Of a stretch of DNA of 28,000 nucleotides, positions 7,954 to 27,837 are shown piece by piece. Source of the stretch: Blasia pusilla (Eukaryota); contig CM114271.1 of the NCBI GenBank assembly GCA_050084515.1, forward strand, positions 49,972,001 through 50,000,000, read 5' to 3'. Position 1 is the first letter of the stretch, and each line of letters opens with the position of its first letter. Under the pieces are notes generated by a model. It saw nothing but the letters and a program-made list of their open reading frames with translations, was not told where the DNA came from and did no database searches. The position numbers were made by a program, and so were the translations under genes.

Positions 7954-8320
7954 ATGGCTTCCCTCGCTCATTGCACCTTCTTCCATGGATGGCCTTCGTT
8001 CTCTGCAACGTTACGGCTAGGGTTGGTTGTTTCGTGCATTTCTGAGTAGACAGCTCCGACTACACACCGGGGGAGGCTGGAGTATTGGGCTCCAAGAATT
8101 GCTGCGTTTGCTGTCAAATGTCGCTCGATATCCTGTTTGCAAAGGTGAGTCCAGTTGTTTGGACTCTTTTTTCTTCAAATGCCTTCTGTCACACATTGCG
8201 GTGATGCACTCTAGAATATGTTCATGAGATGTGTCGTTGGATATTGTAGGTCAGTGCTCAACCTCATTGAAGGTCTTCTTGACGCTACGAAGAAAGGACC
8301 CAATTTTGCGAAGGCGACGG
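7954..8320 (+). pseudogene. Possible spliced gene fragment, product unknown
   Basis: ATG at 7954 (MASLAHC...) with one in-frame TAG at 8047. Donor AG/GTGAGT at 8145 and acceptor TTGTAG at 8249 keep the frame (..SISCLQR-SVLNLIEGLLDATKKGPNFAKAT); next donor at 8321 or 8335. No family recognised. Confidence 0.3.
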
Positions 8321-9192
8321 GTATGAGATGCCGAGTAAGTATGTTCATTCCTTCTCTAAATGCGGAACTCACAGAGGCTTGCAAAATTTTAGGGGGAGCT
8401 GTGTAGGGCGGTAATGCGTATACTCTCCACTTTGGAGAAGAGATATTGATCCCAAACTTACGACTCCTAATAGGAGCAGCCTCCGAATATGCAGCAACTC
8501 ACAGCGTCAAGATTTTGGTGTGATGAGAATGAAGATCCCCATAGCGGAGCGATCATAATCTGGCTGTGTAATTTGCACATTAACTCCGGAGCGATTCTCA
8601 AATTGCAAAACACAGAAACAATGAGACTCGTCTGCTGAAATCTATGGAGATTTATGAATAAGGAAATCTCGGAAAAATCGAGATTGATTGAGGTGGCTCC
8701 ATTCAGCCGATGCTTGTGCTTTGTTGTTTGTCGTTTGTAGCTATGAGAGCCGTTGTGAGGCTTTGCGTTTAGGGTGTGCTCATTGAATTCATAATTGACT
8801 GTTGACATCCGCGGTCTGTGGATTAAATCACTCTAAGATTCCAGTGGAGTTTGTTTTATCATGAATGAAATTGTCAAGCACACACATAGGAGGAGGATGT
8901 GCAAAGCCTTTTAGCCTGCCTTGGATTATCCGGTCACAATCGTTTGTAATTTTATTTTCATTCTTGTTGTCGCACTGTTGGAAATAGAAAGAAAACATGC
9001 TCAATAGTTAAATCAGTGGTCCAAGCCCTTAGAACGAGTAAGAGGTAGCCCGCAATTTCTTTCAAAACTTTGGGAAGGGGATTGGGATTGCTATTGGGAG
9101 GGGTTGTTCTATTGTGTAAGCAATATGGAGCAGTGATCACTGCCTCGCAAATAACTTTGATTAAGATTTTAGGATAGCGGGTAGAGTAATGT

Positions 9193-10197: not shown

Positions 10198-10919
10198 AAT
10201 GTGGTGCTACTGCAATATGGTGTAACTACACCCTTACACCATGAATGGAAAAATTCATAGAAAAAATCATATGAGACAATTGCTATGGATGAATGAAGAG
10301 GATGAATACTGATGACACATGACTATGGTGTAGAACTTGACAACAATAAGCCAAGGAAAATATCAAGAAGTCCCACTTGATGTATTCATGAAGTTGTATG
10401 TGTCCATGTTGTTTGTGGACCACTCTCCTTAGCCACCAAGTCCTGGAATTCATCTGCATGGCTACTTTTCCAAGTGTTACAAAGTATGCTCGAGCTCTCC
10501 TGGTGCTACTGTGTTATTTCGTTGGGCTACTCTGAGTGTGTGTTATACCATCAGGCTTCTCGAAGCATGAGTAACATTGATAGTAGGAGAATAGATAGTT
10601 TAGCTATGACCTTGACCTCTGAATACTTGATTGTGATTATGCTTTTATAACACTCTTGTACTTGGAGACTCCAAGGGGTAGTTCGGATGAGAGACTGAAG
10701 GATCGTTGAGAATACAGACTCAAGGGAAGCAAGGGCAGTTGGGAACTGGTATGTTTCGTCTATTTCCCTCTCCTTCATAGCATGGATTGGTTATCAGGCC
10801 TGATGTTTGAGTACTACTCTATTGTTGAAGTGCTTATGGAAGGACTTGTGTGGTATCAGGTAGGCAATCGTAGGTCTTGGTAAATCTTCCGTCAGAGTTC
10901 AATCGTGGCAGCCACCAGT

Positions 10920-12981
10920 ATGAATCGAGTTGTGTGGGGTATTGCTCTTGGGGAGAACATATATTGGAGATACATAGAGGATGGGGAAAAGTGGATGTGC
11001 ATGCTTTGTAATTTCATCCTAAAGGCCAAAAATAAAACCAAGTGCAATCAGCACTTGATTAAAAACCACCCTGACTTGGACGAGTCATTGCTAGTCCCAC
11101 TAGAAAATCGAGGTAGGCGCGCCAATGACCTAGTGATGGGTCGTAAGAGAGAAGTGACAGATGCCCACAGAGAGAGAGAGAGCTTCTTAGGAAATCCGAG
11201 GATGCTCATAGGAGGGAGGTTAAAATCAAGAGGGAGAAATTGTACAAGTTGCGACAATTCCATTCACAGAACGGTTGAAACCTGTACATGTTCCATCGGA
11301 GAAACCTGTACAGGTTGCGACTCCGTTGTCTATGCAACGGAGTCCTCATATCCCGATAGTAGGGAAGAAGCCATCATTGGTGGCTTTGATGGAGTGTAAT
11401 TTGGTGAATTCCTTGCATATTCGCGATTGGGATGGCCTCCTAGACAGGAAACAATACCGTGAGTGCTTGGTGAGAGTTCACGATTGCCAAAATAGTAACT
11501 CCATGATGGAGCATGTAGTATATGGTTGCTTGGCAGCCATAGATAGAGCAAGTCAACAAGGTTCTAAAGACTTGATAGGGAGGGGTAAGGGTTAATTCAC
11601 ACATCTGGAGATGGTTAAGAAGTTGTGGGGAGTAGTTCAAAAAGGCGATGTTGTGTCTCTACAGGAGTTACTTGCCAAGTTTCTTGTCGAAAGAGAGGCA
11701 CAAGTCAAGCAGAGTGTTGCGTGGATAGCACGCAAGAAACAAAATCTAGTGGGTTGGCTTGAGCGAGATCAAGCCAAGTACTCTGAGTTTATGGCCATGC
11801 AACAATATGAGGAATGGTTGGCCACGAGAGATTCCAAAAAAGCAAAAGATATTTATGAGGAGAGAGTTAGTGCATTTGTTCCAAGTCAAAGGAAACATGA
11901 CAAAGACACATGATGTAAGAAGGGAAAACAAGGTTTGAAAGTGAGAGCAGAGGAGAAGGGTGGACCCTTACATAAGTCTTCGGAATCAAATAGCAGTGAT
12001 TTCCAACCCTTGCCACCTCGACGTTGTCGCTTAGGCGACGACACGGGTAAGGCTGTTAAGAGTAAAGAGGCGGGTAAGGCTTCTAATTGCAAATTACCAC
12101 AGCGTTCAACGGGCCAAAGGAAGGCTGAGACACCAAAATTGAAGGGAAAGAATGTGAGTGCAGCAGCCAAGTCCCCCTATACACGATCAAAAAGTAAGCA
12201 GCAAGACAGTAGGAGTTCCATGCATGTGGATGCCGTTCCATCAGCAAGAGAGATGGGTGTTGATGAAGCTATTCCACCAGGTGGGGGGGCTCCAAGGGTG
12301 GATCTGACTGCACCCCCAAGAGAGAGTCACTTGGTGGAACCCATTCCACCAGTTGGGGAGTCCCTCAATGCGGATGCCACTCCATCTTTGGGACTTCAGC
12401 CTAATGCAGAACTCATTTCACCAGAGGGGGGAGCCGAAAGTGTGTATGCGCAGTGTCAAGGTGATACGCCTGTGGAACCCATTCCACATACTCCATGTGG
12501 TGAGGATGGGGCGGCCATCCATCATGAAGGGGTTAGAGACAATCCACATTTGGTCAAGACAACCGGCTTTGCATTTTGCACCCCTATTCATGAAGACATG
12601 CAGATTCCTTTTGCAAATCGAGTGGCACTGGAGGATCATGAAGATGTTGATGATGACACCCTTATGAAGAAAAAACAATCCTCTAGAAAATTGAGAGCTT
12701 TGAAGAAAAAATTGGGCAAGACGTTGTTGAATGATATCAATGACAACATTAGTAGTGAGGCACCTAAACTTGGCACTCACTCACAAGTGTCCAAGGCCAA
12801 TAACGTGAAGTCCACACGAACAAGTTTGACACCTACTGTCGAGGAGTGCAGGGAATTAGGAAAGTCGAAGTTTGAAGTCCTCCAACAAATGATGAAAACT
12901 CCCCAAACCAGGAAGGCTAAACGGAAGAACAAGTACGGCCAACTCAACCTAGGAGTGGAAAAGAAGAATAAAAAGGTATAA
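10920..12981 (+). pseudogene. Disrupted gene for a BED-type zinc-finger protein with a long low-complexity C-terminal part (probable transposon accessory gene)
   Basis: YWRYIEDGEKWMCMLCNFILKAKNKTKCNQHLIKNH fits the BED finger pattern W..C-x2-C..HL-x3-H. ORFs 11275-11595, 11611-11913 and 11935-12981 follow in one shared frame separated by stops. Lies upstream of, and co-oriented with, a MULE transposase. Confidence 0.6.
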
Positions 12982-13690
12982 ATGTATGTATGAGTATGCA
13001 CTCTCTATGTGATTTTGTGATGATGGCAAGAGTCCTTGTTCTCTACCTTCAATTTTGCTCTCTTATTTTACTTTCATAATAGTTTAGCATGGATAGTAAT
13101 GATATTCCTATCTCTGATTTTTTCTGGTTTTGTCATTACAGATAGCGTAGATGGAGATGTTCCCATATTGGATATGGAAAGCTAGATTCCAGAGTCGTTG
13201 CCCTGTGGTTTCTCAGATATTTCTCTCACGGCAAAAGTATACCCTCGTTAGTTTTTGTCATTAGCGTTGTAGTTTTTGTAGTTCTCGGACCTTACCTGAA
13301 AGTAATTTTGTACAGAGGCTCTCAAAGCATCTACTAGAGGTATACAGTTGGTTCTTCACTTATACTTAAGTGACTTGCCCCATAGTAGTAGAGCTAGAAG
13401 AGGTTTAGACAACTAGGACATGTTGCCACTTGGAATACCACCACCTTGTATAGAAAGTATTTGATTCTGAATTCAAAGTGGTGGGAGTTCACAAATTTCT
13501 ATGATTCTTTTTCTTACACTACGTACGATTTGGGCAGCAAGTTCCTGAGGTTCGAGAGCAATGTAGCACGCAGGTTGGAGGGCAATCCAATTGAGTATAG
13601 TTATTCTATGAAATTCTTGTACCTTCCCATGCTTAGGAGGAAATCATTAGAACTTGGCATAGTATACATAGTAGACATAGTAACAGTTGC

Positions 13691-13848
13691 AAAGCATTCC
13701 ATACATCAGAGAAACCATTCCAGTTCTCAGAGAAGCCATTCCACACAACAAAGAAGCCATTCCATGTGAAGGGTAAGCCATTCCATGGTGAAGGAAAGCC
13801 ATTCCATGTCAATGCAAAGCCATTTTGTATGTCAGTGAAGCCATTCTA
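13691..13848. repeat. Eight-copy array, core AAGCCATTCCA, exact 21-bp period, variable spacers
   Basis: CCATT core starts at 13694 (variant), 13715, 13736, 13757, 13778, 13799, 13820 and 13841. Confidence 0.95.
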
Positions 13849-15157
13849 TTGGTAATGGATAGGGGTAGGATCTTTTTGAAAGCAAGAATGTAGAATGGGA
13901 GCCTAATGTAGACTTCTTCATTCACCTCAAAACCCAATACATGCCTTTTGTTAAACCATGTCCAACCAGATTAGTAGAGGTTTGAATAACACTTTTGACA
14001 TGTGTTCTTTCTGTCTTATTAACATACAGGGAAACATTGATCACAAAATTGGCCTCCTCGAAATGGCCACATCTGATATGCTTGCAAGTGGTAGCTCTTT
14101 AACAAGGAGGATATTATGCATGAACAATATTTTCTCCACGACTCATTAGAGCCAACGAGCTTTCCTGGGATGACGATCATGTAGCATACATACCTTGGGA
14201 AAGATTACATGATTTCATTCTTGGCGAGGGGCATGGCAATGGAAGGAACCCAACAACATTCTGGAAAGGAATGTCAAGATTGGTTAAGGGCTGCTCTAGA
14301 GACATGGATGGAGGGGGTCCATTGTACACAATATACTATTGTGCGTATGGCCCAACTAATCTACGCCAAATGCATCAAGAGATTGTGCATAGATGGACAC
14401 TATCTTCTCCTATCCGTTCACATATTTCAAACTTGGATTATTGAAGAGAGTGGATGACCATTTAGTTAGGAATGGTTAGTGTGTTAATTTCACATCATCT
14501 CCTTTTGTTTTTTTCAGTTCTGCTGTCCCCAAAAGTGGAAGAGGTAGCAGGCCGCGCGGAAAAATTATCAGTAGAGGCAATAGTTGCAAACGTGGGTGTC
14601 GATGTCAATTTACAGTCCTTGAAATCAACACTCCTCCTTACGCTACAAAGATCACCTACAAAAATAGAGCTCACCTGGATAAAGACAACAAGGCATGCCA
14701 TGGAAGGGATGACGAAGCATGCATAAATACACCGAAGATGTTTGCTCCTAGGATTTCAAATGATGTGAAGAATTATGTGAAAGAGAGGCTTTGCTTGGGA
14801 GTTAAGCCCCACTAGATCCAATCCGAGCATTCAAAGATGTTGAAAGAGCGCTCGTTGACGGATCCCAACTTTGAGGAGAGTTTGACCCGAGATGACTTCA
14901 TGCAAATGCATGATATACGAAACATAAAAAAACAATTCAATCATGAGACATTTCTATATGCTAGGAGCAAGAACGAGTCCTTGAGCTTGTTTGTTGAGTA
15001 TTATTTTGAGAAGGTGTTCATTTACGAGCCTTACATGGATGAGACACGTCCATTCATTCTGGGATTCCCAAGCCAATGGCAGCTGAATGCTCTTGTAAAG
15101 TATGGATATGGCAGCGCCTTGAGCATGGATAGCACATTTGGCACAATTCGCAACAGG

Positions 15158-15282
15158 GTACTTGCTCTTACTTATTTTGTTGAAGAGATATTTCATGTGA
15201 AGTAAGTCTTCTTATTAGTTTCATTCATGTTTTGATGATTCCATATAAACATGGTACTAACACTTGTATTGATGTTTTGTAG
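15158..15282 (+). other. Phase-0 GT-AG intron (125 bp) of the host MULE transposase
   Basis: AGG/GTAC donor, CTAAC branch-like site and TTTTGTAG acceptor. Splicing joins MDSTFGTIRNR to FPSYTLVVFDD, matching the MULE core motif. Confidence 0.85.
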
Positions 15283-15306
15283 TTTCCCTCATATACTTTG
15301 GTGGTG

Positions 15307-15315
15307 TTTGATGAT
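15307..15315 (+). repeat. 9-bp target-site duplication, left copy (TTTGATGAT)
   Basis: Identical 9-mer at 27829-27837. Removing the insert plus one copy restores LVVFDD-HHSGIPVAWVLTSS. Confidence 0.95.
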
Positions 15316-15368
15316 GGGGGCTGGTATTCTGGCAGGAGAGAGTAAGAGAGGAGAAGAAGAGAGGAGAG
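15316..15368 (+). repeat. Left degenerate terminal inverted repeat (GA-rich)
   Basis: GGGGGCTGGTA...GGAGAGAGTAAGAGAGGAGAAGAAGAGAGGAGAG versus the reverse complement of the right end, GAGGTGCGGTAAGAGGAGAGGAAGAGAGGAAGAGAGGAGAG. Confidence 0.65.
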
Positions 15369-15568
15369 TCTCTCTTAAAAAAAAAGGGCCAAATCCGCCT
15401 CCTCTCTTCAAAACTTTATGACATATTTGAAATTTTTGTTTGCTTTCAAATCCATGAAATCTTTAGAAGAGAGTAGGTAGTGGTCCACATTTGGCCCTAA
15501 AAAAACCTACTTTTTCCTTGGGGCGAAAAAAAAGTAGACATCATAAGACCACTACAAACATTTTTCCA

Positions 15569-16475
15569 TCATTCTCCATGTGAGCCTAAGTTTCTTAACA
15601 TCTCCTCATCTCGGTCAACAAAAAGCAGTGCCCTTGGTATTTTTTTTGGAGGACCACCCGGATGCCAACCCTAAGCATCTACTCCAAGGCATCTACTGCC
15701 TGAAATTTCTACCTCATCTACTTCTGAACCTGCCCTAACTAAAGCCTCTCGAGCAACATTGATGGCATAGGCTCGACTGTCTCTTGGACATGCTTGAAGG
15801 TGAGATCTACCTCTATATTCTTCCCATGCTTGCTTCTTCTCAATCTGGTTCGAGCCCCGCCTCGTTCACACCTCCACTTAGCTCCACCTCCACAAATCTT
15901 CCAGAAATCACTCCTTGGATCCTCTCAACTCCATAGATCTCTCCCTTTGATTCTCAAGCTTTATGGCCTTCAAATGAGGTCCTCTAGGCTTCCATGAGGA
16001 ATCTTCTAGCCCACAAGAGTCCAAGCATTTGAGCTCAGCCTCCATTGACCTCTTCTTAACCCCTTATTCTTCATTTCTTGGCCCTAACAATCAGATCCAC
16101 CCCTTGGTTCAAAACCTCCTCTACAACAAAGACAATCAAGCACTCTATCTCCTTCATTGGATACCCTCGAGACTCCTAGTGCCTACACCATCTCCCTTGT
16201 CTCCTCTAGGCTTGAGGTCAATGGAGTGACTTGGCTGCATTATCACCTTGTACAATCTTCTTGACTTGTTCTTGGACAGATCTGGCTCTTTGGCCTTTCT
16301 CTTGCACCACCTCCACAAGTCCAAAAACATATTCAGAAAACTTTTACAAACACCATTATGGGTTCAAAAATCTCGCCCTTATTACCTCCGAAGGAACTCG
16401 AAATGTACATTGAACCTAGTCTATGATTTCTTCAGCCTCATCATCTACAAATTTACTCCTAACTCTCCTCGTGAT
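15569..16475 (-). pseudogene. Decayed coding-like segment in the left arm of the MULE, product unknown
   Basis: The minus strand is purine-rich and translates in pieces to RRVRSKFVDDEAEEI and QIEKKQAWEEYRGRSHLQACPRDSRAYAINVAREAL...PPKKIPRALLFVDRDEEML, with several stops. Confidence 0.4.
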
Positions 16476-16553
16476 GCATCAAAGGAATGTCCGGGATTCA
16501 AGTGGTCGCCCGCCGGTTGTAGACGGGGATCGAAAATGTTGGCGAATTCGAGA

Positions 16554-16593
16554 GCCTTGGCCCCCCCCTAGGTACCTAGGGGGGGGCCAAGGC
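16554..16593. repeat. Perfect 40-bp palindrome
   Basis: GCCTTGG-C8-TAGGTACCTA-G8-CCAAGGC is its own reverse complement with no spacer. Confidence 0.97.
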
Positions 16594-16628
16594 CCGCCTG
16601 ACTGCCTGATCCGAAAGGGTCCGATCAG

Positions 16629-16775
16629 GCAACCTGTCGGAATCAGACAGGTTGCCTGGAGGTGGTAAAAAGGGTCCAGTGGTCAAAAAGCGAAAAGTTG
16701 CAAGGAGGAGAAATCCGACGGGTTGCAGTGGTCATAAAGTGAAAATTGCAAGCAGGAGAAATCCGACGGGTTGCA
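16629..16775. repeat. 27-bp palindrome cluster 1 (3' of cargo gene)
   Basis: GCAACCTGTCGGAATCAGACAGGTTGC plus two half-degenerate copies ending TCCGACGGGTTGC. Confidence 0.85.
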
Positions 16776-17029
16776 AAGTAGAAGACCGTGGAGTACATAG
16801 ACGATCACATTCGAAAAGACAAAATGATCACCAAACATTTACAAGCAACACCTTTGATCGAAAAAATCTTCTGCTTTATATCATCCGAAAAAAGCTCAAA
16901 TCAGACATTTGATCTATTCTATGAAATCTTTTGCCAAATTATCAAAAACTCCCTACTCCAAACGCCAGTCAATAAGCCGGTCATTGAGTTCTTTGAACTC
17001 ACTCGTCATCGTCGAGAGCTCTTGCAAAA

Positions 17030-17486
17030 TCACTTTCGGCCTTGCCTCCTGATTTTGGGAATCATTGGAAGTGACGATGGAGTCACTACCAAGGGTGGCT
17101 CGAACCGAGCTCGGCTTCGTGGAGAGTTGTACGCCCCAACGAGCCTTTCAGATTCTCGCCTTTGCCTCCTTGCAAAGGTCAAACGATTCTGCCTTCCTCG
17201 AGGCGCGAGAATGTTCCGCCACTCGCCAGCGCCCCGATACTCGCCCCCGAAAGGCCCACTGTCGAACACCAAGTCACCCGGCCTTGAGCAGAGCTCGATG
17301 AGCGCTTGCATCGTGGTCGGGCGACTTTTCCTTCCTCCCGAAGCGGGCATGTCTTACATGTAAATTCCCGGGGAATCGTACAAACTATCTAAGTGCACCC
17401 ATCGAGCATGGATCCACAGGATCCGGATCTTGAACACTGGAAATGGTGCTCGGGCGAACAAAACAAGACACGAGGGAGTGGTCCAT
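17030..17486 (-). other. Last exon: amino-MTase motif X / SAM-binding motif I region
   Basis: ORF 17030-17350 gives TTMQALIELCSRPGDLVFD. Adjacent frames give EKS before it and GASI, RNILA[L]EE, SFDLCKEA after it. This parallels the EKP..L..LI...S.PGD.VLDPF.GSG.T..AA...GR..IG.E consensus of N6_N4 methyltransferases. Confidence 0.72.
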
Positions 17487-17990
17487 CTCAGAATCAAGAC
17501 GAAACAATGTCGAAACTAAAGAAGTCGTCTTGAGAAGATTTTCAATAATCGACTTTGGATCAACGTGTCGGAGTCGGACGGGTTGTTTTGTCTCGGACCC
17601 ACCCGCCGGGTTCCGACGGGTTACGATTGCTTTTGGGTTTCCAAGTTGATTTTGGTTTCGGATGCAACCCGTCGGAAGGCGACGGGTTGTCGCTCAGACC
17701 ACCCATGCTCGCCCGAGAGCAACCCGCCGATAGCAACCCGCCGCTATTAGATGGGTTGCATCCAAAACAAAAAATCGCAACCCGCCGTTCGACGGGTTTC
17801 CGTTTTCCTCAGATGTGGGAAAGATGCAACCCGCCGAAACCGACGGGTTGCTCTCACCGAGCATGGGTCGCTCTAAGCCAAACAACCCGCCGCCTTCCGA
17901 CGGGTTGCTCACGGAAAAAAAACCTGATCGACTCTCATTCTACACATCATTATAAGATAATTGAAATTATTGTACAGAATATAGCCTTAC
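17487..17990 (-). repeat. Predicted intron of cargo gene containing palindrome cluster 2 (~7 copies, 17560-17910)
   Basis: Minus-strand GTAAGG donor at 17990 and candidate acceptor at 17487. Contains copies such as GCAACCCGTCGGAAGGCGACGGGTTG and GCAACCCGCCGAAACCGACGGGTTGC. Confidence 0.75.
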
Positions 17991-20029
17991 CCGAATCTGA
18001 CTCGTTGCGGATCGGAGTGGGTACTCGTTTTTGATGATCCATGATTGTGCCGTCCTCCACTTTAGCGACCTCTTGACGCACTGGAGGTTGAAGAGCTCGT
18101 CCTCGCTCCTTCCGGGCCAACACCAAGAAGCAGCCCCGCCACTCGAGATAGGCGTCGCAAAGGAGAACAAAAGTGCAACTGGTCATAAGTGAGCGGCAGA
18201 TTCCACTCAGGTACCTCGTCCGCCGGATTTTCGCCCCAAAGTCGCAACCCCGAGGGCAAATTGGCGATCAAGAGATCCACCGCAACCTCTTCCACCACTC
18301 CATTCACCGTCCAGGCAACGTGCCCGTTTCGTTGGAGCTTCCTTCCAGCGTTGTCAATTTTTTGATGGCAGTTGTCGACACTTGAGAACTGAAGCTGTTC
18401 AACTCATCCAGTAAAGAGGTGACCTGAAGGAGGACGCTTGTCCGGGTCGTTGTTTGTCTGTGTCTTCCCAAGGATGATGGGCTGTATTCTCCTTGGGACA
18501 ACCCAGGCACCTCTCGCTTCGCTTCTCTAGTCCGGGACGGCTTGTCGGGTTTCGATGACCTCGGATTCTGGTGGCGTTTTCTTCGCCGAGGACCTGGTCC
18601 GACCCTCTTTTCCCGCTCGTCCGGACGATTCCGCCTCTGGCCTCTCATCTTCAGGCTCTCTTTGGGAAGTCTCGGCCTCTGAATTTTTCCTCCCCTCGCT
18701 TGCCTTTGAGACCGCTGTGGATTTGTCTTTGGCTGTCCGGACCTTGAAGCCAACTCACTGTCTCGTACCGCTCTTCGCATCTCCTCCGAAGAAGTCTTCA
18801 GCCGACAAAATTGGGGATGTCGTCTTGTCCTAAGGCCATTGCATCATGAAGCACTCTTAAGTCTTATCGGTGATGTCTTCAGTGGTCGTTGAAGTCGAGC
18901 CAAATGGGGCAATTCTCCACCTCCAAATCCGACATGTGCTGACCCATCTCCACGTCGTACATGGAGAATGTCTCTCCATCCGGCGGCGAAGCCCACAATT
19001 TCAAGGCAACCGGCAATTTTCCCCACCTACCCGCGTTCTTACACTGGACGAGGTACTTGAATACCATCCGTTGGGCAGCTTTTAGTCGAACATTATCGGC
19101 CGTCTGCTCCTGTAGATCTCGCTTCTTCTTCGCTTGATCCCGTTTGTTACCCTCTACTTTTCGTCAAGCTCTCGCCGAGGGAGGACGCAAACCTTGAACA
19201 TGGTCTTGAATCCAGGGTTCTTGGTTGGCTTGTCCCGGATGTCGTCGAGCCAAACCTCGTAATCTCCAGAACTTTCAAGGTTTGCTTCCGGCGGAATGGG
19301 CTCTAATCTTCTAAGCTCCGCTTGCAGACCGTCCAGCACGGACTTCCCGATTACCCGCAACGCGCCCCGAATGACCATTCGCGTAGCTAATGCGAGATCA
19401 CCGGATCGGACACACCTGGAGGATGGTGTGTCGCCCTCTTCCGGGCCTCTCGAGCCCTCGAGATCGATTTTCATCATCGTATCCTCTGAACTCGCTAATC
19501 CCGGATAACGCAAAACGATGCATGCGATCCAGCGACACTTTCTCCCCAATCCGACCATGCGGATCTTCATCCTCTTCGCCGACGCTTGATAATCGCCTTG
19601 AGCTCCTTGTAGAACTCCGGACCAAGTTGGGGTTAAGAATCTTGATGTATCGCTGCATCTTGCTCGCCGTGTATTTCGTTGCAGCAGAGACAAAGCAGCT
19701 TGATGAATTTGGCGCGCTCAGACGCAGATACCTTCTCCCTCCACTCGGCTCGGTCACGGCGCTTTTCTTCATGGCCTGTATCTTCGACCAAACAAAGGAT
19801 GGTAACGGCTGCATCTTGAGAAATAAACTTGTTTGCCCAAGTTTTCTTCTTAATTTGAGCACCCTTTGCAAGCATCTGATTGACGAGGCACGCCCAAGAA
19901 CCCTTGTACTCTCCCGGGTGCGTCGTAAGCACCTTCCTCACCCGATCGTAGTCCTGGATCCAATGGTGGATGATATTCCTCCGATACAATCGCACATCCA
20001 AACTCAACCCGCCAGGAAATTACATGGGT

Positions 20030-20904
20030 TCCTCGCAACCCGCCGGACTCGACGGGTCGTCCACTTCAGGGTCGGATTCTAGCAACAAGCTAAATGATGC
20101 AACCCGTCGGAGTCCGACGGGTTGCATTCAGATTTGCTAATGCCAGGTAAGCAACTCGTCGGAGTCCGACGGGTTGCTGGACTGCACGCTTTTTCAGATG
20201 TTTTTTTAAGATTGCAACTCGTCGGACTCCGACGAGTTGCAATCTTGAACATAGATTTAACTAGTTGTTGGCCCAAAGCAAACCCCGAGTCCGACGGGTT
20301 GCTGATAGGTCGCTTTGTGAGGTTGTTTTTTTAAGAATGCAACTCTTCGGACTCGACAAGTTGCTCGAGTGACAAAGAGTTTAGAAGGTTTTTGCCCCAA
20401 AGCAACCCGTCGGACTCCGACGGGTTGCTTGCCTCGAAGCTATTTTTCCCTAATCAACCCGTCGTAGTCCGACGGGTTGATTTCGGCCAAAAATAGTTTC
20501 GAGGCAAGCAACCTGTCGGACTCCAACGGGTTGCTTTGGGGCAAAAACCTTCTAAACCGCGTCCCTCGAGCAACTCGTCGGAGTCCGACGAAAGTTGCAT
20601 TCTTAAAAACAACCTCACAAGGCGGCTTGTCGAGCAACCCGTCGGACTCCGACGGTTTGCTTTGGGCCAAAAACTAGTTAAATCTATGTTCCATCAAACA
20701 AGTCGTCGGAGTCCGACGAGTGTCAATCTTAAAAACATTCGAAAATCGTAGTTTAAAACCCGTCGAGTCCCGAAGTTGCTTCCCAAGATAGCAAGAGGCA
20801 TTGAGTCCGACGAAGCTTTTATTCGCCTAAAAAACCTAACCCATTCATCAATAGCAACTCGCCGAGTCCTATCGAGGAACCGCGAAAGTGTTAAAGATAC
20901 TTAC
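20030..20904 (-). repeat. Predicted intron of cargo gene containing palindrome cluster 3 (~13 copies) arranged as a long foldback
   Basis: Minus-strand GTAAGT donor at 20904; perfect copies at 20099-20125 and 20402-20428; spacers mirror around 20467. Acceptor not pinned (about 19980-20030). Confidence 0.85.
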
Positions 20905-21429
20905 TTGTTCATGGCATGCATTGCCATCTCCACCGCCGCCATGTGATGAGGGTATGGGTGAAGGACCACCGTTTCATGAAATGTGCCTCCAATGAGTTGG
21001 GGAGAAGGCCCATCAAATTGGTCCACGCCATGAACTGTGATTTCCATCCCGGATGAAGAAATCCGATTCCTCATCCATTGAATTCAGCCCTCAACTTGCA
21101 TCATTTGAGTCCTGGTTGGATCCTCCGAAATTTGTCGAGATTTTCCAAGTCCTCCTGAACTTAACGGTGTAGAGCTTTGGGTTCCATGCTGCATTAAAAA
21201 TGAAACATAGAAGGGTTTTGAAAACTCCCAAACCCCAAGAAGGATTTGTTTTATTTTTCCGCCGCCCGATTGTTTTAGCTTTTTGCGATGTCCTCGCCCT
21301 TCAGTTCAGGACGTATTCCATTTTTCTTAATCGGCATAGTGGAATCCTCGGGAAGCGTTGTTGGCCCTCCATGAGTGCCATCCGCTTTACCACCGGATTG
21401 CCCAAAATACGCGGGACAAGAGGAATAAG
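20905..21429 (-). other. Exon encoding ParB/sulfiredoxin-like domain
   Basis: Across frameshifts: IRP..KGEDIAK, KLKQS, KPFYVS, FFIRDGNH[R]FMAW and ETVVLHP..HMAAVEMAMHAMN. A hydrophobic strand + DG.HR..A + helix ending in Asn is the ParB/Srx core pattern. Confidence 0.65.
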
Positions 21430-22411
21430 CTACATGAAATCCCAATGAATTGCAATTCACATAATTAAAAACGGAGGAACCTCTCTTACCCGCTCAAAAA
21501 TGGAGTCGGTTTCTTGACCACTAACTTGTCCGGAGATGGCGGCAAATCGACCGGGAACTCGTCGATCCGATAGAGGTCGATGTCCTCTCGGGCTTGGAGT
21601 CGAATGACCGCTCTCCGACTTCTTCCGCCATGTCCACCATCTCCCGCGTTCCAGGATGGCGGTCCTCATGACTCGCGTCATCGATTTGCGGTGTTGTTTC
21701 CACTATGTTGATTGTGTCCCGGACTTCGTGGGGACATTTCCCGCATCTCAACACTTGAAAAGTTGACGGCCTGGGCTATCGCCAATGGCTATCTTCATTC
21801 CTTTTCCCGCCGCTTTAGCCAATTCCGCCCTCCTCACCGACGCGATAGGAGGGACGCTTCTTTTCTCTCTTTTCATCGGGCGATCCTTTTCTTCAAGGCT
21901 GGCGACGCCTCAGCCTCTTCGTCTCGTTTATCTAGCGCCGCTTGAACACGTCTCGCCGGAGGGATTTCGGAAAAATGACAGAAAAGCACTTGGTTGTGCA
22001 TCTCCGCTTCCCTTTCCCGCTCCTCGATTTCCTGCCGCCTAATTTCATTCGCGAACGAGGTGGCAGAGAATCGAGAAGTCCTAATGGACTTGGGAATGAA
22101 GCTCCCGGACTTGTTGGCTTGTGTTTTTTCCTTGTCATTTTTTCTGAAGAAATCCCTCCGCCTATGTCCACGAAATTTAATCCCTTGATCAGTCGCTTGT
22201 TGATGTCAAGATGGGAGCTGGCTCGCTTGGTGGTTAGCTCGATCGCCCCGATATCGCCTGGCCGAACTGTCTTGTCTCGCCTCCTATCGACTCGCGATGT
22301 GTCAACATAGTGAAATGCCCCTTCAGATCGATCACGCTGTCATGAGGAGAGTGAGGAGTGGAGGAATGAAGATTGGAAATGAGAAACCGGAAATGAGCGA
22401 CTTCTCGACCC

Positions 22412-22419
22412 TATTTATA
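22412..22419 (-). promoter_or_regulatory. TATA box of cargo gene
   Basis: TATAAATA on the minus strand, followed by a pyrimidine-rich leader and ATG at 22343. Confidence 0.7.
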
Positions 22420-22514
22420 CTTTTCTAGTCGTTGGGCTGACCCGATTTGGGTCCCGTCGTCCTTTCGACGGCAAGAAACGTGCCGAATGTTACGGAAGAG
22501 AGGACGTTTTTTAA

Positions 22515-23245
22515 AAATCGCAACCCGCCGGAGTCCGACAGTTCCTCTTGCCCGCCATCCTGGGAACGCCGCCACGGAGGAGCAACCCGCCGAGCCCGAC
22601 GGGTTGAGCGAATCCGTTGTCTTCGGAAAAGAACGAGAGGTAAAACAACCCGTTGGAGACCGACATGTTGCGTGCCTCGCCATCTCGCGAACGCCGCCAC
22701 GCAGCATGCGAGCAACCCGCCGAGACCGAGGGGTTAAGCTCCTCCGCCGTCTTCGAAAACAAGTTGAGGTACTGCGCAAGCCGATGAGACCGACATTTGC
22801 GCCTCCCCCGTGTTTGGGACGGAACGGACGTATTTTGGGCAATCCGTCGAGTGGTGGGTTGCACGCTTCCCTCATCATGGGTTAGGAACGATGGCTGAAC
22901 ACCGTATCAAGTCGCCGGAGTCGGCTTGCTCGATTGATGCACCACGGCGCGACGCCTTGCGCAACCCGTTGGACGGCGACGGGTTGCACGCCTCGCCGTC
23001 TTTGGGCTCAAAGGCAAGGCACCCGCAGAACTCATCGGGAACAGACGGTTTGCACGCCTCCGGCATCTTCGAGCAAGAAGGAGCGGTATCCCAACAAGTT
23101 GTTGGAGAGCGACGGGTTGCTCGCTTCGACAATGTTTAGCAGAAGCGTGCAACCCATCCGATGCCGACGGGTTGCAGGCTTCGGTAAGCTCGGGTAATTT
23201 CTGAGTTACCACGACTCCGATGGGTTCCAAGTGATGCGCAACCCT
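22515..23245. repeat. Palindrome cluster 4 (~11 degenerate copies) in the bidirectional promoter
   Basis: Examples: GCAACCCGCCGAGCCCGACGGGTTG, GCAACCCGTTGGACGGCGACGGGTTGC, GCAACCCATCCGATGCCGACGGGTTGC. All lie between the two outward-facing TATA boxes. Confidence 0.85.
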
Positions 23246-23381
23246 CTGCTTCCCAAATCCGGTAACATATTGCAACACAATTGAATGTGTTACAGAATTG
23301 GATCCATTGTGTCAGACAATCTCCCCCACCGAATTCATCTTGTCAGTAAAAATCTGTCAGGAGTATGTGTTTCCTATTCAC

Positions 23382-23388
23382 TATAAAT
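23382..23388 (+). promoter_or_regulatory. TATA box of transposase gene
   Basis: TATAAAT followed by a (ATTCTC)3 leader and ATG at 23440. Confidence 0.7.
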
Positions 23389-23439
23389 TAAATATTCTCA
23401 TTCTCATTCTCAGTCTCCTCCCGTAGGAATCTTCTTGGA

Positions 23440-26400
23440 ATGGATAATTATGTTAAGCTCACTTGTGGCAGTCATCTGGCGGCCCTTCCTCAATCAGAAA
23501 TCATTCGACCCCAAGCTTGTGAGTCTTTCGTAGTAGTGGATGAAAATTTTCTGTCTGTTCGATTTCTTCTTCAAATTGGAACCATCTTTGTATCTAAAGA
23601 TGTTAGGGTGGAAGGTATGGAAGACAAAATAGGTGAGACGGTCCAGCCAGTGACCTCAGACCGTAAAGTATGGAATCTCCTACCTGTCGCAAATGGTCAA
23701 TACAGAGTTTACGGCCCCCTCGACTCGTCTGTTTCCCAAGTAGACGGTCTAGAATTTCCTAGTGCTCCGAGCTCTACGTTTGCAACTCCAAGCTCTGCAG
23801 ATCCGGCTTCGACACCAACTTCGCACACTCGTAACAATGTTGTTCTTCCTGAAGAGATTTCGGATGTTATCAACCTCAGCGGATCTGTCGGACACCAATC
23901 GGGCCCTGTGTCCGCCTACTCGTTCCTCTTTCGAGTATCGGCAATAGTTTGCTTTCGTCTCGCCTTGAAAATGTTCAAGCATATTCTTGTCGATTTAGCC
24001 GCCGCCACGCACGATGGTAATCGCATTTTTGAGTTGCCTCCACTTGCCGCTCCTGCTCAAAAGAAGGATGGAGGACGCTGAAGGGTATGGGAGAAAGTCC
24101 GATTGTCATCGATGGTGCAGCTTCAACGGACAAGTGCTTCCATCCCGAGATGGTCCTTGGATTGTCCCGCCGCCAATGCGTGGGAGCCTTGGAGTGTAGA
24201 AGTCCAGCATGCCCGTATCTAGAGCGCAACGGGCGAGTCAATACGTCGCAATTCCCCCAAGAATGCAGAAACTCCATACGAGGTGGGTGCCACAATACCG
24301 CCGGGAGGCCATCGATGTCCTCATTGTCGCATCGCCTCTGCGTTGGAGCGTGTCCGCATACATATTTTTCATTGTCCATGACTTGGGCTCCACGCCGAGT
24401 ATACAAGGTCGGGCAGTTCATGTTGGCTCCACACTCATCTTGTGACCGATGCAATTCAAAGACACATCAAGGAGGATTTGGCGAAGAAAGTAGCCGAGGT
24501 CTTGAAAACTCCGGGTTCAAAGCCCGGGTGATCAAGCTCACAACGGCATCACAAATTTTTGAACAATTGCTTGGAATCCTCGGATGGGCGAGATCACGGC
24601 GGTTGAGGAGAAACAACTGGGAAAATCTCGCATTTCTCGCTGATCCCGAATGCTTCCGAATTTGTCGCCGATACGAAGTTCGGATGGAAAGACGGCCGAA
24701 ATGGATGCCATCGCCAGAATCAAGGCCAACTCCAGATTTCCATTCATTCAGAGATGGCAGTTCATGGGCCAAGGAGGCGAGGGATCCAGGGCCTATGTCT
24801 TCAAAATGTCAACCACAGGTCCGTCGAGTGGCCTCGATCTTATAGATCGAATGAGGGAAGGGGAAGATCTTTACGGAGCCGGGTCAGCTTTGATATTTGC
24901 TACAGAGTGCTTGAACGGATGGTTGACGATGGGTGCTCACGTTTATGACCATGTGGAGAAGGGACTCAAAACTATATTTGTGTGTGAAGTAAAGGCAGAA
25001 GATGTTGGCAGTTTGAAGATGTGTTGGTTACTCTTATTGGAGGTGGTGAAGGAAAACAAAAGGCCACCTCCGAAAATTTATGGGTTCATGGCGGACAATG
25101 CACAACCTGGGTGGATTGCTATCCGGGAAGTGTTCTAGGGTGGAGAGGTTCAACCTGAGAGGGAAAGGTCGGATGCTTTCCATTGGCAATGATCAGTGAC
25201 CCGGTACACCAAATCTTGCATCAAGGAGAATAAGAGGACAGAGCATGTCACTCTACTCCAACGCTGCAAGGACAAAGAAACCTTGAAGCAGGCCATGGAC
25301 CGCCAGAAGAACTTCATGGGTGGTGGAGGAAGCATGCGATTGAGGGAAGTACAAAGAGTTGTGCTCTTGGTTGAGTTGGTGGATGTACGTATGAGACAAT
25401 GGGGAAACTTCATGCGGCAGGTGAGTTCACTATTTTGTCTTGTCAAGCTCACGCTGAGAATTGTTTGTAAAGTTGTAGCTCAGGGTGAGAAGCGTGGGAA
25501 TTATATGGATTTAAAACCCAAGAAACCAAGCAAGCTGTCGGATGCGACGGGTTGCCCGAGTGTGCAATCCGACGGAAACCGACGGGTTGCCCGAGTGTGC
25601 AACCCGACGGAAACCGACGGGTTGCATCCAGATGTTTGGTGTCATCCCGGGTGTGCAACCATTCGGGACCCGACGGGTCACAGAGTCGTTCATGGGATGC
25701 CTCGGCCTTGCAACCCGTCAGGTTCCGACGGGTTGCAGTAGGTGGGTTTAAGGTTACAACACGGCGGGACCCGACGGGTCGCAGAGTCGTTCATGGGATG
25801 CCTCGGGCCTGCAACTCATCTGGTTCCGACAGGTCGCTTATTTCTTTGAGTCCTGGGTTATTTTCGTTCCCTTCTAACATTTCCGTCGTTGCAGGGATTG
25901 AACGTTCATGAAAATGCCCTCTCCCCCACCACAAGTGGAGCAGAAAGTGTTCATTCCTCTTGGAGGTCGTCACAAGCATACCAACGAATTTCACTTGTGG
26001 AGGCATGCCAACAAGACCAGGCAAGAGCAATGCTACGATCTGCAAAGACATCCCATATCTTTCTCACAAAAGGCATAACAAAAGGAAAAGGGCCGTCGAT
26101 CTACGAGCTCTATGTCGTATGGCTTTGTGAGATCTCGGTGATGAAAAATTGTATGTCGAAGCCTTCAACGGTGCGTAGTGGAACTCCACTCGAGCAAGAC
26201 GTACACATTGGTGGGGATATTCGTGGGCGGGTTTCAAGACGCCCCATACAGATGGTGGTAGAGCATCCAAACGAGACTCGTGGAGACAAGATAAGTATCT
26301 TGACTTCAGCAGTGAAGAGGCAAAGCATCGAGGAACGAATCCGGTGATTGATTTGGATGAGGAAATTACACCGCCTAGGTATTCGGGGACCCCGGACCCG

Positions 26401-27408
26401 TCCCAAATCCGTAATGGAGTTACTTCTCCAAAATCAATGAATGTTTTATTTCAAAAGCCCTCCGTTGCTGGAAGTTCGCAACATCCTGTCACTCGGATGG
26501 TTCAACAATATGGGATTCCGGTAATGGAGGTGGATTGCAACCTAAAACGGTGGCATATATCTCGGAGCAACCCAAGAGGTGGACCCACCTGCAGGGCAGG
26601 ATCTGATGGCATTAGGAGAGCATGCGGCACTTTCCTAAATAAGAATCAGATAAGGATGGGCGACCACTCACCGCTCGGGTTTTGGGGACTCAAAACCTTC
26701 GATCGTTTCACGAGGACTGGGGATCAATTGAAGTACTTCTTCTGTCCAAATGAATCTTGCGCTTTCCGGAAGTCTTATCCGGCTGCCATTGGAGCTCCCG
26801 GGAATACCCCCACAATTTGGCCCATCGCCGCAGGCACGAACTGCACTCAAGACGAAGTGGACAATCTTACAAGTGCCGGTTTGGACTCGAGACGGGGAAG
26901 TTCGAGCATGTTCGTGACATGAGACCTTCGATTTCGTATTCAACCCAAGATTGATGTCAACATGTACCCGGAGAAGGTGGATGATCTCAATCCATTATTT
27001 CTGTTTGAGTCTAGAAATGGGGTGAAGAGAAACAGAATGTGTAGGCCAACGGTGGAGAGAGCAAAACGAATTGAAGCAGCTCGGGAGGCAAAAATGGAGA
27101 TCATCGCCACGAAAGATATCCAGAGTGGCAATGGAATAGGAAGGATGTATTGGGTCAGGAACAACACTGTAAATTCAAGTGTCATAGGGGTGTATGTGGT
27201 GCACATCTGTTGCTTTCCCACATGTTCATGTGATGACTTTGTCCAAAGAGAGACAAGTGGCAAAAGGTATTTCCCTTGTAAGCACATGTACTATGTGTTC
27301 TTTGGTAGTTTTAAGAGAGTCGGAGGTAGGAGTAGGAATCCACCAACCACCTCATCCCTCAAAGAAGTTCAAGTATTTAAAACAAACCACTTTGAGGATG
27401 CAAAATGA
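23440..27408 (+). pseudogene. MULE-like DDE transposase with N-terminal Cys cluster and C-terminal SWIM zinc finger (stops and frameshifts as assembled)
   Basis: CVGALECRSPACPYL; VFKMS..GP.SGLDL; VSFDICYRV (D1); GFMADNAQ (D2); RERSDAFHW (CxxH-equivalent). After intron 25421-25894 comes PTTSGAESVHSSW (E), a further Cys-rich block, and YVVHICCFPTCSCDDF...PCKHMYYV (SWIM CxC..CxH). In-frame stops at 25136 and 25190. Confidence 0.88.
25421..25894 (+). repeat. GT-AG intron of transposase containing palindrome cluster 5 (~7 copies) and a ~70-bp duplication
   Basis: CAG/GTGAGT donor, CTAAC branch site and TTGCAG acceptor; splicing joins WGNFMRQ to GLNVHE. Near-identical blocks at ~25664-25735 and ~25765-25836. 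Confidence 0.85.
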
Positions 27409-27754
27409 GGTTTTAGATTGTACTTTTTTTTTTTTTTTTTTTTCTCAACCTTCACTTGTGAGCTTGAACTCTATTCAGCCGGGGCAAATGATAGATTTTT
27501 CCAGACCTTGGATGGAAAAAGTGATTGGTTCCACACTTATGATTCCACTGATTTTTCAGTTTTGTAAATTTTGTGCAATTTGCAACTCGTCAGACTCACA
27601 GGGGTTGCCAAAATATGGAAGAGGAAAAAAAAATTGTGGGATTGTTTAATAAATGAACAAAAAAGTGCAAAAAAATTCACACAAAAAGTTTCCTCTCTTC
27701 AACCCAACGGAAACTCTCTTCAAAAAAAAGTATCTATTTCGGTTGAAGGTAGTT

Positions 27755-27828
27755 TCCTCTCTCCTCTCTCCTCTCTTCCTCTCTCCTCTCTCCTCTCTTC
27801 CTCTCTTCCTCTCCTCTTACCGCACCTC
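27755..27828 (-). repeat. Right degenerate terminal inverted repeat (CT-rich, CTCTCTC/CTCTCTTC units)
   Basis: Pyrimidine tract ending CTCCTCTTACCGCACCTC directly before the TSD; complementary in character to 15316-15368. Confidence 0.65.
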
Positions 27829-27837
27829 TTTGATGAT
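27829..27837 (+). repeat. 9-bp target-site duplication, right copy (TTTGATGAT)
   Basis: Identical to 15307-15315. Confidence 0.95.

What the first reader, a model, noticed from the sequence alone, without database searches (positions are those of the whole stretch)
20905..21429. ParB/Srx-like domain hidden by frameshifts in the cargo gene
Seen: the minus strand reads TTC TTC ATC CGG GAT GGA AAT CAC AG- TTC ATG GCG TGG = FFIRDGNH[R]FMAW, followed by AVEMAMHAMN at the exon end. The ORF track misses this. Established: DG.HR..A is the ParB/Srx nucleotide-binding signature, and ParB-MTase fusions are common in phages and bacterial mobile elements. Inference: the whole fusion was acquired horizontally and then gained introns inside a plant DNA transposon.
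Basis: partly seen in the sequence, partly recalled or inferred. Interest (0 to 1): 0.75.

Follow-up and report, generated by a model that had tools for sequence, protein, structure and literature searches.

The report
Plant transposon's ParB–methyltransferase-like helper gene
A very abundant jumping gene of a non-seed plant carries a second, intron-split gene joining a bacterial ParB-type nucleotide-binding fold to a probably non-catalytic DNA methyltransferase-like domain, next to dozens of palindromic DNA sites; the pairing is known from algal transposons, but here it is young, under selection and testable as a self-recognition system.

Summary
The ParB/Srx call is right. Window 21393-20905 (minus) is exon 2 of a four-exon gene in a 12.5-kb Mutator-like transposon (15316-27828, 9-bp target duplication; at least 1,516 ends genome-wide). 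Sister copies read WDGNHR in frame (Arg codon at 522 of 663 in-frame sites; the window's deletion at 27). A model of an intact sister exon (pLDDT 93) matches KorB, PadC, sulfiredoxin and ParB. The exon splices to a beta-class N4C/N6A methyltransferase-like domain whose catalytic motif is DLPS, not DPPY. The window exon has 24 indels, not one; they look largely like long-read consensus errors. Variants shared between copies are mostly synonymous (omega 0.08-0.21 in four of five cargo segments, intron control 1.1), so the gene worked during amplification. The same fusion occurs in liverwort, moss, lycophyte and fern proteins, and an intron position is shared, so it is old; no prokaryotic donor was found, and ParB-methyltransferase accessory genes are published for algal transposons. 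Best model: the protein binds the element's ~40 non-coding 25-bp palindromes and helps it stay active, VANC-like. Binding, nucleotide use and activity are untested. New variant of a known kind.

The parts
15316..27828 (.). Whole Mutator-like DNA transposon, 12,513 bp, ends without a true long terminal inverted repeat
   Evidence: Ends and identical 9-bp flanks; 9-10 bp duplications in 17 of 19 copies with both ends; first 20 nt of the two ends match at 10 positions, shared GA-rich tract behind
15307..15315 (+). Left target-site duplication (9 bp)
27829..27837 (+). Right target-site duplication (9 bp)
22412..22419 (-). TATA-like box ahead of the cargo gene (function inferred)
   Evidence: found in 19 of 25 copies
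21490..22031 (-). Mapped part of cargo exon 1 (charged, low-complexity; start codon further up, not fixed)
20905..21393 (-). Cargo exon 2: ParB/Srx-fold domain, 157 codons in intact sisters, 24 indels in this copy
21037..21048 (-). DGNH of the Box II-like motif; next codon is one base short here, Arg in most sisters
19992..20904 (-). Cargo intron 2 with an array of 25-bp palindromes (8 here, 15 in the L022/L023 copy)
17991..19991 (-). Cargo exon 3: helical region, charged linker, first half of the methyltransferase-like domain
18251..18262 (-). Motif IV position: NLPS in this copy, DLPS in 22 of 25 copies (canonical DPPY)
17487..17990 (-). Cargo intron 3 with palindromes
16999..17486 (-). Cargo exon 4: second half of the methyltransferase-like domain (motif X-I region)
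   Evidence: Pfam PF01555 E 1.4e-4 on the L023 exon, below cut-off; PHROG methyltransferases E 2e-5; coordinates
22500..23190 (.). Palindrome array between the divergent genes (4 here at up to 5 mismatches, 9 in L022)
23392..25463 (+). Transposase, first part with D..D and DxxH-type motifs (motif identity recalled)
25520..25850 (.). Palindrome array in the inferred transposase intron
25894..27392 (+). Transposase, second part ending in a SWIM-like finger
   Evidence: Pfam SWIM E 0.014; coordinates

Best explanation
The finding is the ParB/Srx-fold exon of the accessory gene of a young, very abundant Mutator-like transposon. The spliced protein (roughly 1,300 aa) has a charged N-terminus, a ParB-type nucleotide-binding domain, a helical region that overlaps the DNA-binding part of KorB, a linker and a beta-class amino-methyltransferase-like domain. 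Shown: fold, splicing frame, linkage, selection, palindrome arrays. Inferred: the protein binds the element's own 25-bp palindromes in the promoter and introns, uses a nucleoside triphosphate through its Arg-Arg-Asn site to load or spread as ParB does, and so keeps its own element open against host CG/CHG silencing or helps it transpose, as VANC does for VANDAL elements. The methyltransferase-like domain probably binds DNA or SAM without methylating, since it lacks the aromatic residue of motif IV. The window copy's frameshifts are mostly consensus errors.
For: Fold: pLDDT 93.1; KorB Z 8.4, rmsd 2.2, 90 aligned, PadC 7.8, Srx 6.9; 13 of 14 rows ParB/Srx-type (class of some rows recalled); Foldseek top rows ParB and Noc. 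R28, R113, N157 kept in 87 of 97, 90 of 100, 64 of 76 aligned relatives, matching by spacing the phosphoryl-binding R54, R95, N127 of MxParB (PMC13229309). Splice model collinear with Riccia P0150, 26%, E 1e-80. KorB alignment runs on to model residue 390 of P0152 (Z 7.4, rmsd 6.6, 187 aligned). Variants shared by 4+ copies: omega 0.08 ParB, 0.12 helical, 0.21 linker, 0.18 MTase N-half, transposase 0.19-0.26, intron 1.12. 40 palindromes in one copy, none in cargo exons, 0 in 20 shuffles; 23 in the window, all inside the element. C-to-T change lower in palindromes than in other non-coding sites (CG 4.0 vs 5.8%, CHG 3.7 vs 6.4%).
Against: No binding, nucleotide or expression data. A helix-turn-helix is not demonstrated; the KorB overlap has rmsd 6.6. 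The hydrolysis residues Q52 and E93 of MxParB appear replaced (Y and an invariant N; by spacing). Foldseek gave no match at E 0.001 or better. The MTase C-half shows weaker constraint (omega 0.55, 18 variants). ParB-exon copies were chosen by protein similarity, which biases that omega down. CG and CHG sites mutate 3-5 times more than CHH, so copies are methylated in spite of the gene. In phage ParB activators the NTP residues were dispensable (PMC13229309, abstract). The palindrome difference could come from repeat homogenisation, and copies are not independent.
Confidence: 0.45

Rival explanations
1. The fusion is an active 4mC or 6mA writer with a non-canonical motif IV; the ParB part steers it to the element, which marks its own copies.
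For: Beta-class fold: top Foldseek rows CcrM, M.BceJIV, M.MboIIA. D and P of motif IV and the following PxWN are kept across lineages; moss P0210 has DTPF and passes the Pfam cut-off over profile positions 2-217; fern P0064 has DVPF. MTase N-half under purifying selection. Proposed for algal proteins (PMC12477816).
Against: This family has DLPS (22 of 25) and FDLVGLSG in place of DPPY and FxGxG; the Riccia relatives have D[LM]P[ST]. The aromatic residue holds the target base in this enzyme class (PMC4738411).
Confidence: 0.17
2. The palindromes are read by the transposase or by host factors; the ParB fusion acts otherwise, for example as a scaffold or activator of the transpososome that does not need its nucleotide site.
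For: A Mutator transposase alone can activate its own copies (bioRxiv 10.64898/2026.08.24.746577). Phage ParB proteins act as NTP-independent activators (PMC13229309). A related locus (L145) has a different repeat array that is not this palindrome, and L170 showed none among its 20 largest repeat families.
Against: The AtMu1 transposase bound element ends, whereas 39 of 40 palindromes here are internal. A 12-1-12 palindrome fits a dimeric ParB-type reader, and the same pairing is reported for Plavaka PAG3.
Confidence: 0.28
3. The gene is a passive passenger or an already dead relic, and the frameshifts are true decay.
For: No fetched copy was found intact in all exons; the best has one stop. 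Private variants approach neutrality (omega 0.33-0.79). The short-read run may be another individual, so single indels cannot be checked.
Against: Shared variants are strongly synonymous and the majority sequence has no stop in any coding segment. Indel rate falls as substitution rate rises (rho -0.51, p 0.01, n 24); deletions are mostly single bases, recur at the same sites and are 3.3-fold enriched in CHG.
Confidence: 0.1

Closest known systems
Accessory protein of Ectocarpus Sola1-1_Ec32 (PMC12477816; passages read)
   Same: One protein of about 1,100 aa with ParB-like and N4C/N6A methyltransferase domains, on the strand opposite the transposase of a large DNA transposon; self-binding and self-modification proposed
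   Different: Brown alga and Sola-1 transposase there; land plant, Mutator-like transposase, DLPS motif and 25-bp palindrome arrays here. Sequence homology to the algal protein was not tested
PAG2 and PAG3 of red-algal Plavaka transposons (bioRxiv 10.1101/2025.02.11.637652; passages read)
   Same: ParB-like domain and PF01555 methylase as transposon cargo, inverted-repeat arrays beside the ParB gene, cargo moving between superfamilies including Mutator
   Different: There the two domains are in separate genes (ParB with a 2OG oxygenase, methylase with SET); here they are one gene
VANC of VANDAL elements (PMC5735166; abstract read; passages of 10.64898/2026.08.24.746577)
   Same: Mutator-like element with an accessory gene and repeated target motifs in non-coding DNA
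   Different: VANC anti-silencing is shown by experiment; nothing is shown here, and no relation of VANC to ParB was tested or is recalled
Bacterial ParB/KorB/Noc clamps and phage ParB-N6_N4 methyltransferase fusions (PMC12704722; passages read)
   Same: Fold, Arg-Arg-Asn site, palindromic sites; the domain pair is enriched in phages
   Different: About 45-residue helical insertion, GNHR for GERR, no ParA, introns; no sequence-level match
Marchantia MpDN4MT1a/b (bioRxiv 10.1101/2021.02.12.428880; passages read)
   Same: Prokaryote-type beta-class amino-methyltransferase in a non-seed plant
   Different: Active 4mC enzymes with TSPPY; the text does not mention ParB or transposase

Membership tests
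ParB/Srx superfamily | ParB/Srx fold | tested here: met
ParB/Srx superfamily | GxxR motif with conserved Arg | tested here: met
   G110 93 of 102, R113 90 of 100; 522 of 663 genomic sites
Canonical ParB CTPase clamp | Hydrolysis residues (Q52, E93 of MxParB) | tested here: not met
   Y and invariant N at the equivalent places, by motif spacing only
Canonical ParB CTPase clamp | Central helix-turn-helix that reads parS | tested here: inconclusive
   KorB alignment extends to residue 390 of the P0152 model, rmsd 6.6
Canonical ParB CTPase clamp | CTP binding, dimer closure, sliding; ParA partner | not testable with these tools
   Nucleotide preference is not predictable from sequence (PMC12704722); the element holds only two genes
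Beta-class N4C/N6A DNA methyltransferase | Permuted fold, motif IV before motif I | tested here: met
Beta-class N4C/N6A DNA methyltransferase | [DNSH]PP[YFW] catalytic motif | tested here: not met
   DLPS in 22 of 25 copies, none canonical; motif definition from PMC4738411
Mutator-like elements | 9-11 bp target-site duplication (recalled) | tested here: met
   17 of 19 copies
Mutator-like elements | MULE-type DDE transposase with SWIM finger | tested here: inconclusive
   SWIM E 0.014, no Pfam MULE hit, no useful PDB hit; D..D..DxxH seen by eye, motif recalled
Mutator-like elements | Long terminal inverted repeats (absent in non-TIR members; recalled) | tested here: not met
   10 of first 20 nt alike
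Algal ParB-methyltransferase transposon accessory proteins | ParB-like plus PF01555 domain in one gene, opposite the transposase | tested here: met
Algal ParB-methyltransferase transposon accessory proteins | Sequence homology to the algal proteins | not tested
   No algal sequence was returned (clusters looked up), 42 or 89
VANC-type anti-silencing systems | Sequence-specific loss of methylation caused by the accessory protein | not testable with these tools
   Only indirect: lower C-to-T rate in palindromes

The most novel reading that the evidence does not exclude
A land-plant transposon uses a true parS/ParB-like system in the nucleus: the cargo protein loads at the element's 25-bp palindromes in a nucleotide-gated way, spreads over the element and shields it from 5mC silencing with a catalytically dead methyltransferase fold, and this drove a burst to more than 1,500 copies. 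The family would be a second, much older anti-silencing class beside VANC, present from liverworts to ferns and once fused to a host Myb domain.
Probability: 0.25. Interest if true: 0.88.

Novelty: new variant of a known kind. Interest (0 to 1): 0.52.

Why it matters
ParB-methyltransferase accessory proteins have been proposed, never tested, as self-binding epigenetic modifiers of algal transposons. Here the pair sits in a young land-plant family with at least 1,516 ends (about 5% of the assembly if all were full length), a majority sequence without stops, measured purifying selection and a sharp candidate target (a 25-bp palindrome, about 40 per element). That makes three questions directly testable: whether a ParB-type nucleotide switch works on eukaryotic chromatin, whether transposons of non-seed plants have their own anti-silencing factor, and whether the methyltransferase fold writes 4mC/6mA or only reads DNA. 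It also warns that frameshifts in methylated repeats of such assemblies hide intact genes.

Tried and rejected
Sequence-only assignment to ParB failed: Pfam gave DUF1015 at E 0.021, 2 of 102 members touched DndB weakly, the PDB profile search and PHROGs gave nothing. The Atlas gave feature look-alikes at 0.92-0.96, one cluster with ParB_N on 11% of members, and nothing for the middle region. A homodimer prediction of P0152 residues 22-490 gave no answer. No RNA holder listed; the one DNA run holds 0.10 of the window's words. Laid on the window, its contigs add a base at the frameshift in two placements (behind 21034, 9 contigs; behind 21036, 6 contigs); the second would read Glu, which the assembly has at only 29 sites, so I did not treat it as a subfamily. 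Scans for prokaryotic or viral relatives used narrow patterns and confirmed none; this does not prove absence. A search of the own genome with a distant relative (P0023) returned what appears to be the same family (not examined row by row). The exon-2 donor count hit a wrong site and was not used. A paper documenting CHG-linked long-read errors was not found; that link is recalled. Searches for a published land-plant case found none. Rejected: MpDN4MT1 orthology (TSPPY vs DLPS); contamination by a bacterial contig (introns, target duplications, copies on all large contigs).

Full report
Observation. It reads FFIRDGNH and shifts by one base into FMAW; AVEMAMHAMN ends at 20905 before a GT donor. 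No minus-strand ORF of 80 aa covers it. The window lies in a 390-Mb genome of 26 contigs. An intact sister exon (L023:941-1413) finds 2,912 candidates; all 150 scored match at 92-99% over 156-157 aa. Between the fixed flanks of the motif a full codon stands at 663 sites, AGG at 522, GAG at 29; the window's short form at 27; reversed controls 0. The exon starts at 21393, the family residue before D is W, and the window exon has 24 indels.

Fold. Sequence profiles do not name the domain. A search of 1.84 billion representatives gave 146 relatives. Folded with 101 relatives, the sister exon gives pLDDT 93.1, pTM 0.87. Of 48,161 chains 14 reach Z 2; the best are KorB (Z 8.4, rmsd 2.2, 90 aligned), PadC (7.8), Arabidopsis sulfiredoxin (6.9), an archaeal ParB, SerK and SbnI; 13 of the 14 are ParB/Srx-type, partly by my recall of their class. 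Foldseek ranks ParB and Noc first, best E 0.006. R28, R113 and N157 are kept in 87 of 97, 90 of 100 and 64 of 76 aligned rows. By spacing these match the phosphoryl-binding R54, R95, N127 of Myxococcus ParB, while its hydrolysis residues Q52 and E93 are replaced (residue roles from passages of PMC13229309; the mapping is my inference). Nucleotide binding is likely; which nucleotide cannot be read from sequence (passages of PMC12704722).

Gene. In L023 three GT-AG introns give one frame; exons 2-4 make 1,005 codons with one internal stop, collinear with an annotated Riccia sorocarpa protein (P0150; 26%, E 1e-80). The C-terminal part is a beta-class amino-methyltransferase fold: PF01555 at E 1.4e-4, under the cut-off; the moss relative P0210 passes it over nearly the whole profile; a model of Riccia P0152 ranks CcrM, M.BceJIV and M.MboIIA at the top, best E 0.006. 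Motif IV is DLPS in 22 of 25 copies and never canonical, against [DNSH]PP[YFW] (passages of PMC4738411). In the same model KorB aligns from residue 26 to 390, past the ParB domain into the helical region (Z 7.4, rmsd 6.6), a hint of a ParB-type DNA-binding part.

Element. The gene lies head to head with a transposase in a 12,513-bp unit, 15316-27828, flanked by a 9-bp duplication. 17 of 19 copies with both ends have 9-10 bp duplications; 22 of 25 hold transposase and exons 2-4 in order. Those 25 are the window, 20 top protein hits and 4 of the 7 pairs; the other 3 were rearranged or nested and left out. One end motif occurs 1,516 times with up to one mismatch. Duplication length, a SWIM-like finger (E 0.014) and D..D..DxxH motifs seen by eye point to Mutator (features recalled); Pfam gave no MULE hit and the ends are not long inverted repeats. 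A 25-bp palindrome (12-1-12) occurs 40 times in the L022/L023 copy: 9 between the genes, 15 and 6 in cargo introns 2 and 3, 7 in the inferred transposase intron, 3 elsewhere, none in cargo exons; 0 in 20 shuffles; 23 in the window, all inside the element.

Frameshifts. Against L023, exon 3 of the window has 70 substitutions and 36 indels, whereas L082 has 256 and 2, L102 84 and 0. Across 24 copies indel rate falls as substitution rate rises (rho -0.51, p 0.01). Single-base deletions recur at the same sites in many copies, and 42% lie in CHG triplets that make up 13% of the sequence. True decay would not behave so; long-read consensus error at methylated sites would (recalled; no paper found). 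Contigs of a public DNA run add a base at the motif frameshift, but the run holds only 0.10 of the window's words and may be another individual, so some breaks can be real. I put 0.75 on mostly artefact.

Selection. Variants shared by four or more copies give omega 0.08 (ParB exon, biased by the choice of copies), 0.12 (helical), 0.21 (linker), 0.18 (MTase N-half), 0.55 (MTase C-half, 18 variants), 0.26 and 0.19 (transposase); intron 2 read as codons gives 1.12; the majority sequence has no stop in a coding segment; private variants give 0.33-0.79. The cargo gene was constrained as much as the transposase while the family spread. CG and CHG sites change 3-5 times more than CHH, so copies are methylated; inside palindromes the rate is lower than in other non-coding sites (CG 141 of 3,509 against 283 of 4,890; CHG 56 of 1,519 against 155 of 2,434), which could be protection, selection or homogenisation.

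Range and origin. Of 30 clusters looked up, 14 name an organism: 10 Riccia sorocarpa, 4 Adiantum nelumboides. A profile search added Ceratodon purpureus and Diphasiastrum complanatum, both with ParB motif and PF01555 in one protein. Motif IV varies: DTPF, DFPT, DVPF, NFPT, D[LM]P[ST]. 70 metagenome loci (41 clusters, hosts not determined) carry the domain; 31 loci in 13 clusters have a methyltransferase-like match on the same strand, 2.3-5.1 kb behind where both were anchored, and 3 loci have a related transposase. Of 101 aligned relatives, 63 have the final Asn and 49 of these end within two residues; in 4 of 4 loci where the pattern matched, a GT donor follows in the same phase as here. The intron and the fusion are therefore old. 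No prokaryotic relative was confirmed (narrow patterns). ParB fused to PF01555 is enriched in phages, so a prokaryotic origin is plausible, but date and donor are open. The window's family grouped with two Riccia proteins at modest support (92/84; 98 rows, 4 short rows left out); a liverwort host is my inference.

Prior art. Ectocarpus Sola1-1_Ec32 encodes a 1,104-aa ParB-like plus N4C/N6A methyltransferase protein opposite its transposase, and self-modification is proposed (passages of PMC12477816). Red-algal Plavaka elements carry ParB and methylase domains in separate genes, with inverted-repeat arrays beside the ParB gene (passages of bioRxiv 10.1101/2025.02.11.637652; supplements not seen). 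VANC binds repeated motifs and removes methylation (abstract of PMC5735166). I found no paper on a land-plant case (subscription journals are largely missing). Earlier notes of this scan led me to the Ectocarpus paper and list similar, mostly decayed cases in other genomes; they are unchecked leads.

Mechanism and verdict. Best model (0.45): the protein binds the palindromes, uses its nucleotide site to load or spread, and keeps its element active, with a non-catalytic methyltransferase fold. Rivals: palindromes read by transposase or host and the fusion acts as scaffold (0.28); active 4mC/6mA writer (0.17); passenger or relic (0.10). The domain call is solid, the domain pair is known from algal transposons, and the function is untested. 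What is new is the land-plant, Mutator-linked, fused, motif-degenerate form in a young, selected, very abundant family with a defined candidate site. New variant of a known kind; interest 0.52.

Noticed in passing
window 10884-15315 and 27829 onward, continuing in L021:1-1200: The element is inserted in the coding region of an older Mutator-like transposase (FPSYTLVVFDD | HHSGIPVAWV across the duplication); a BED finger lies at 10884-11399 (E 0.0012) and a SWIM-like CxC..CxH in L021.
   Followed up: partly
window 13695-13841: Array of 21-nt tandem units inside the outer element, unrelated to the 25-bp palindrome.
   Followed up: no
P0214 (Diphasiastrum complanatum, cluster of 7): A Myb domain (E 8e-9) is fused in front of the ParB-methyltransferase-like protein, with a canonical-looking motif I and DFPT at motif IV; possible host domestication or annotation merge.
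   Followed up: no
P0210 (Ceratodon purpureus): Full-length relative with DTPF at motif IV, the best candidate for an active enzyme in the family.
   Followed up: partly
L145:419-2512 and 7454-8617: A related transposase head to head with the ParB gene and a different repeat array (about 110-nt spacing) just ahead of the gene, the same layout with another motif.
   Followed up: partly
L036-L065, motif codon 113: Arg to Lys in 4 of 30 copies, at a CHG site, as expected from deamination of methylated C.
   Followed up: partly
L026-L029, L032-L033: Copies nested in or facing other copies of the same family; clusters of motif hits on C1 at 8-11.5 Mb and 55-56 Mb suggest local piling.
   Followed up: no
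window 1941-2210; L021:2814-5145; L023:8914-9999: LTR-retrotransposon pol fragments near copies.
   Followed up: no
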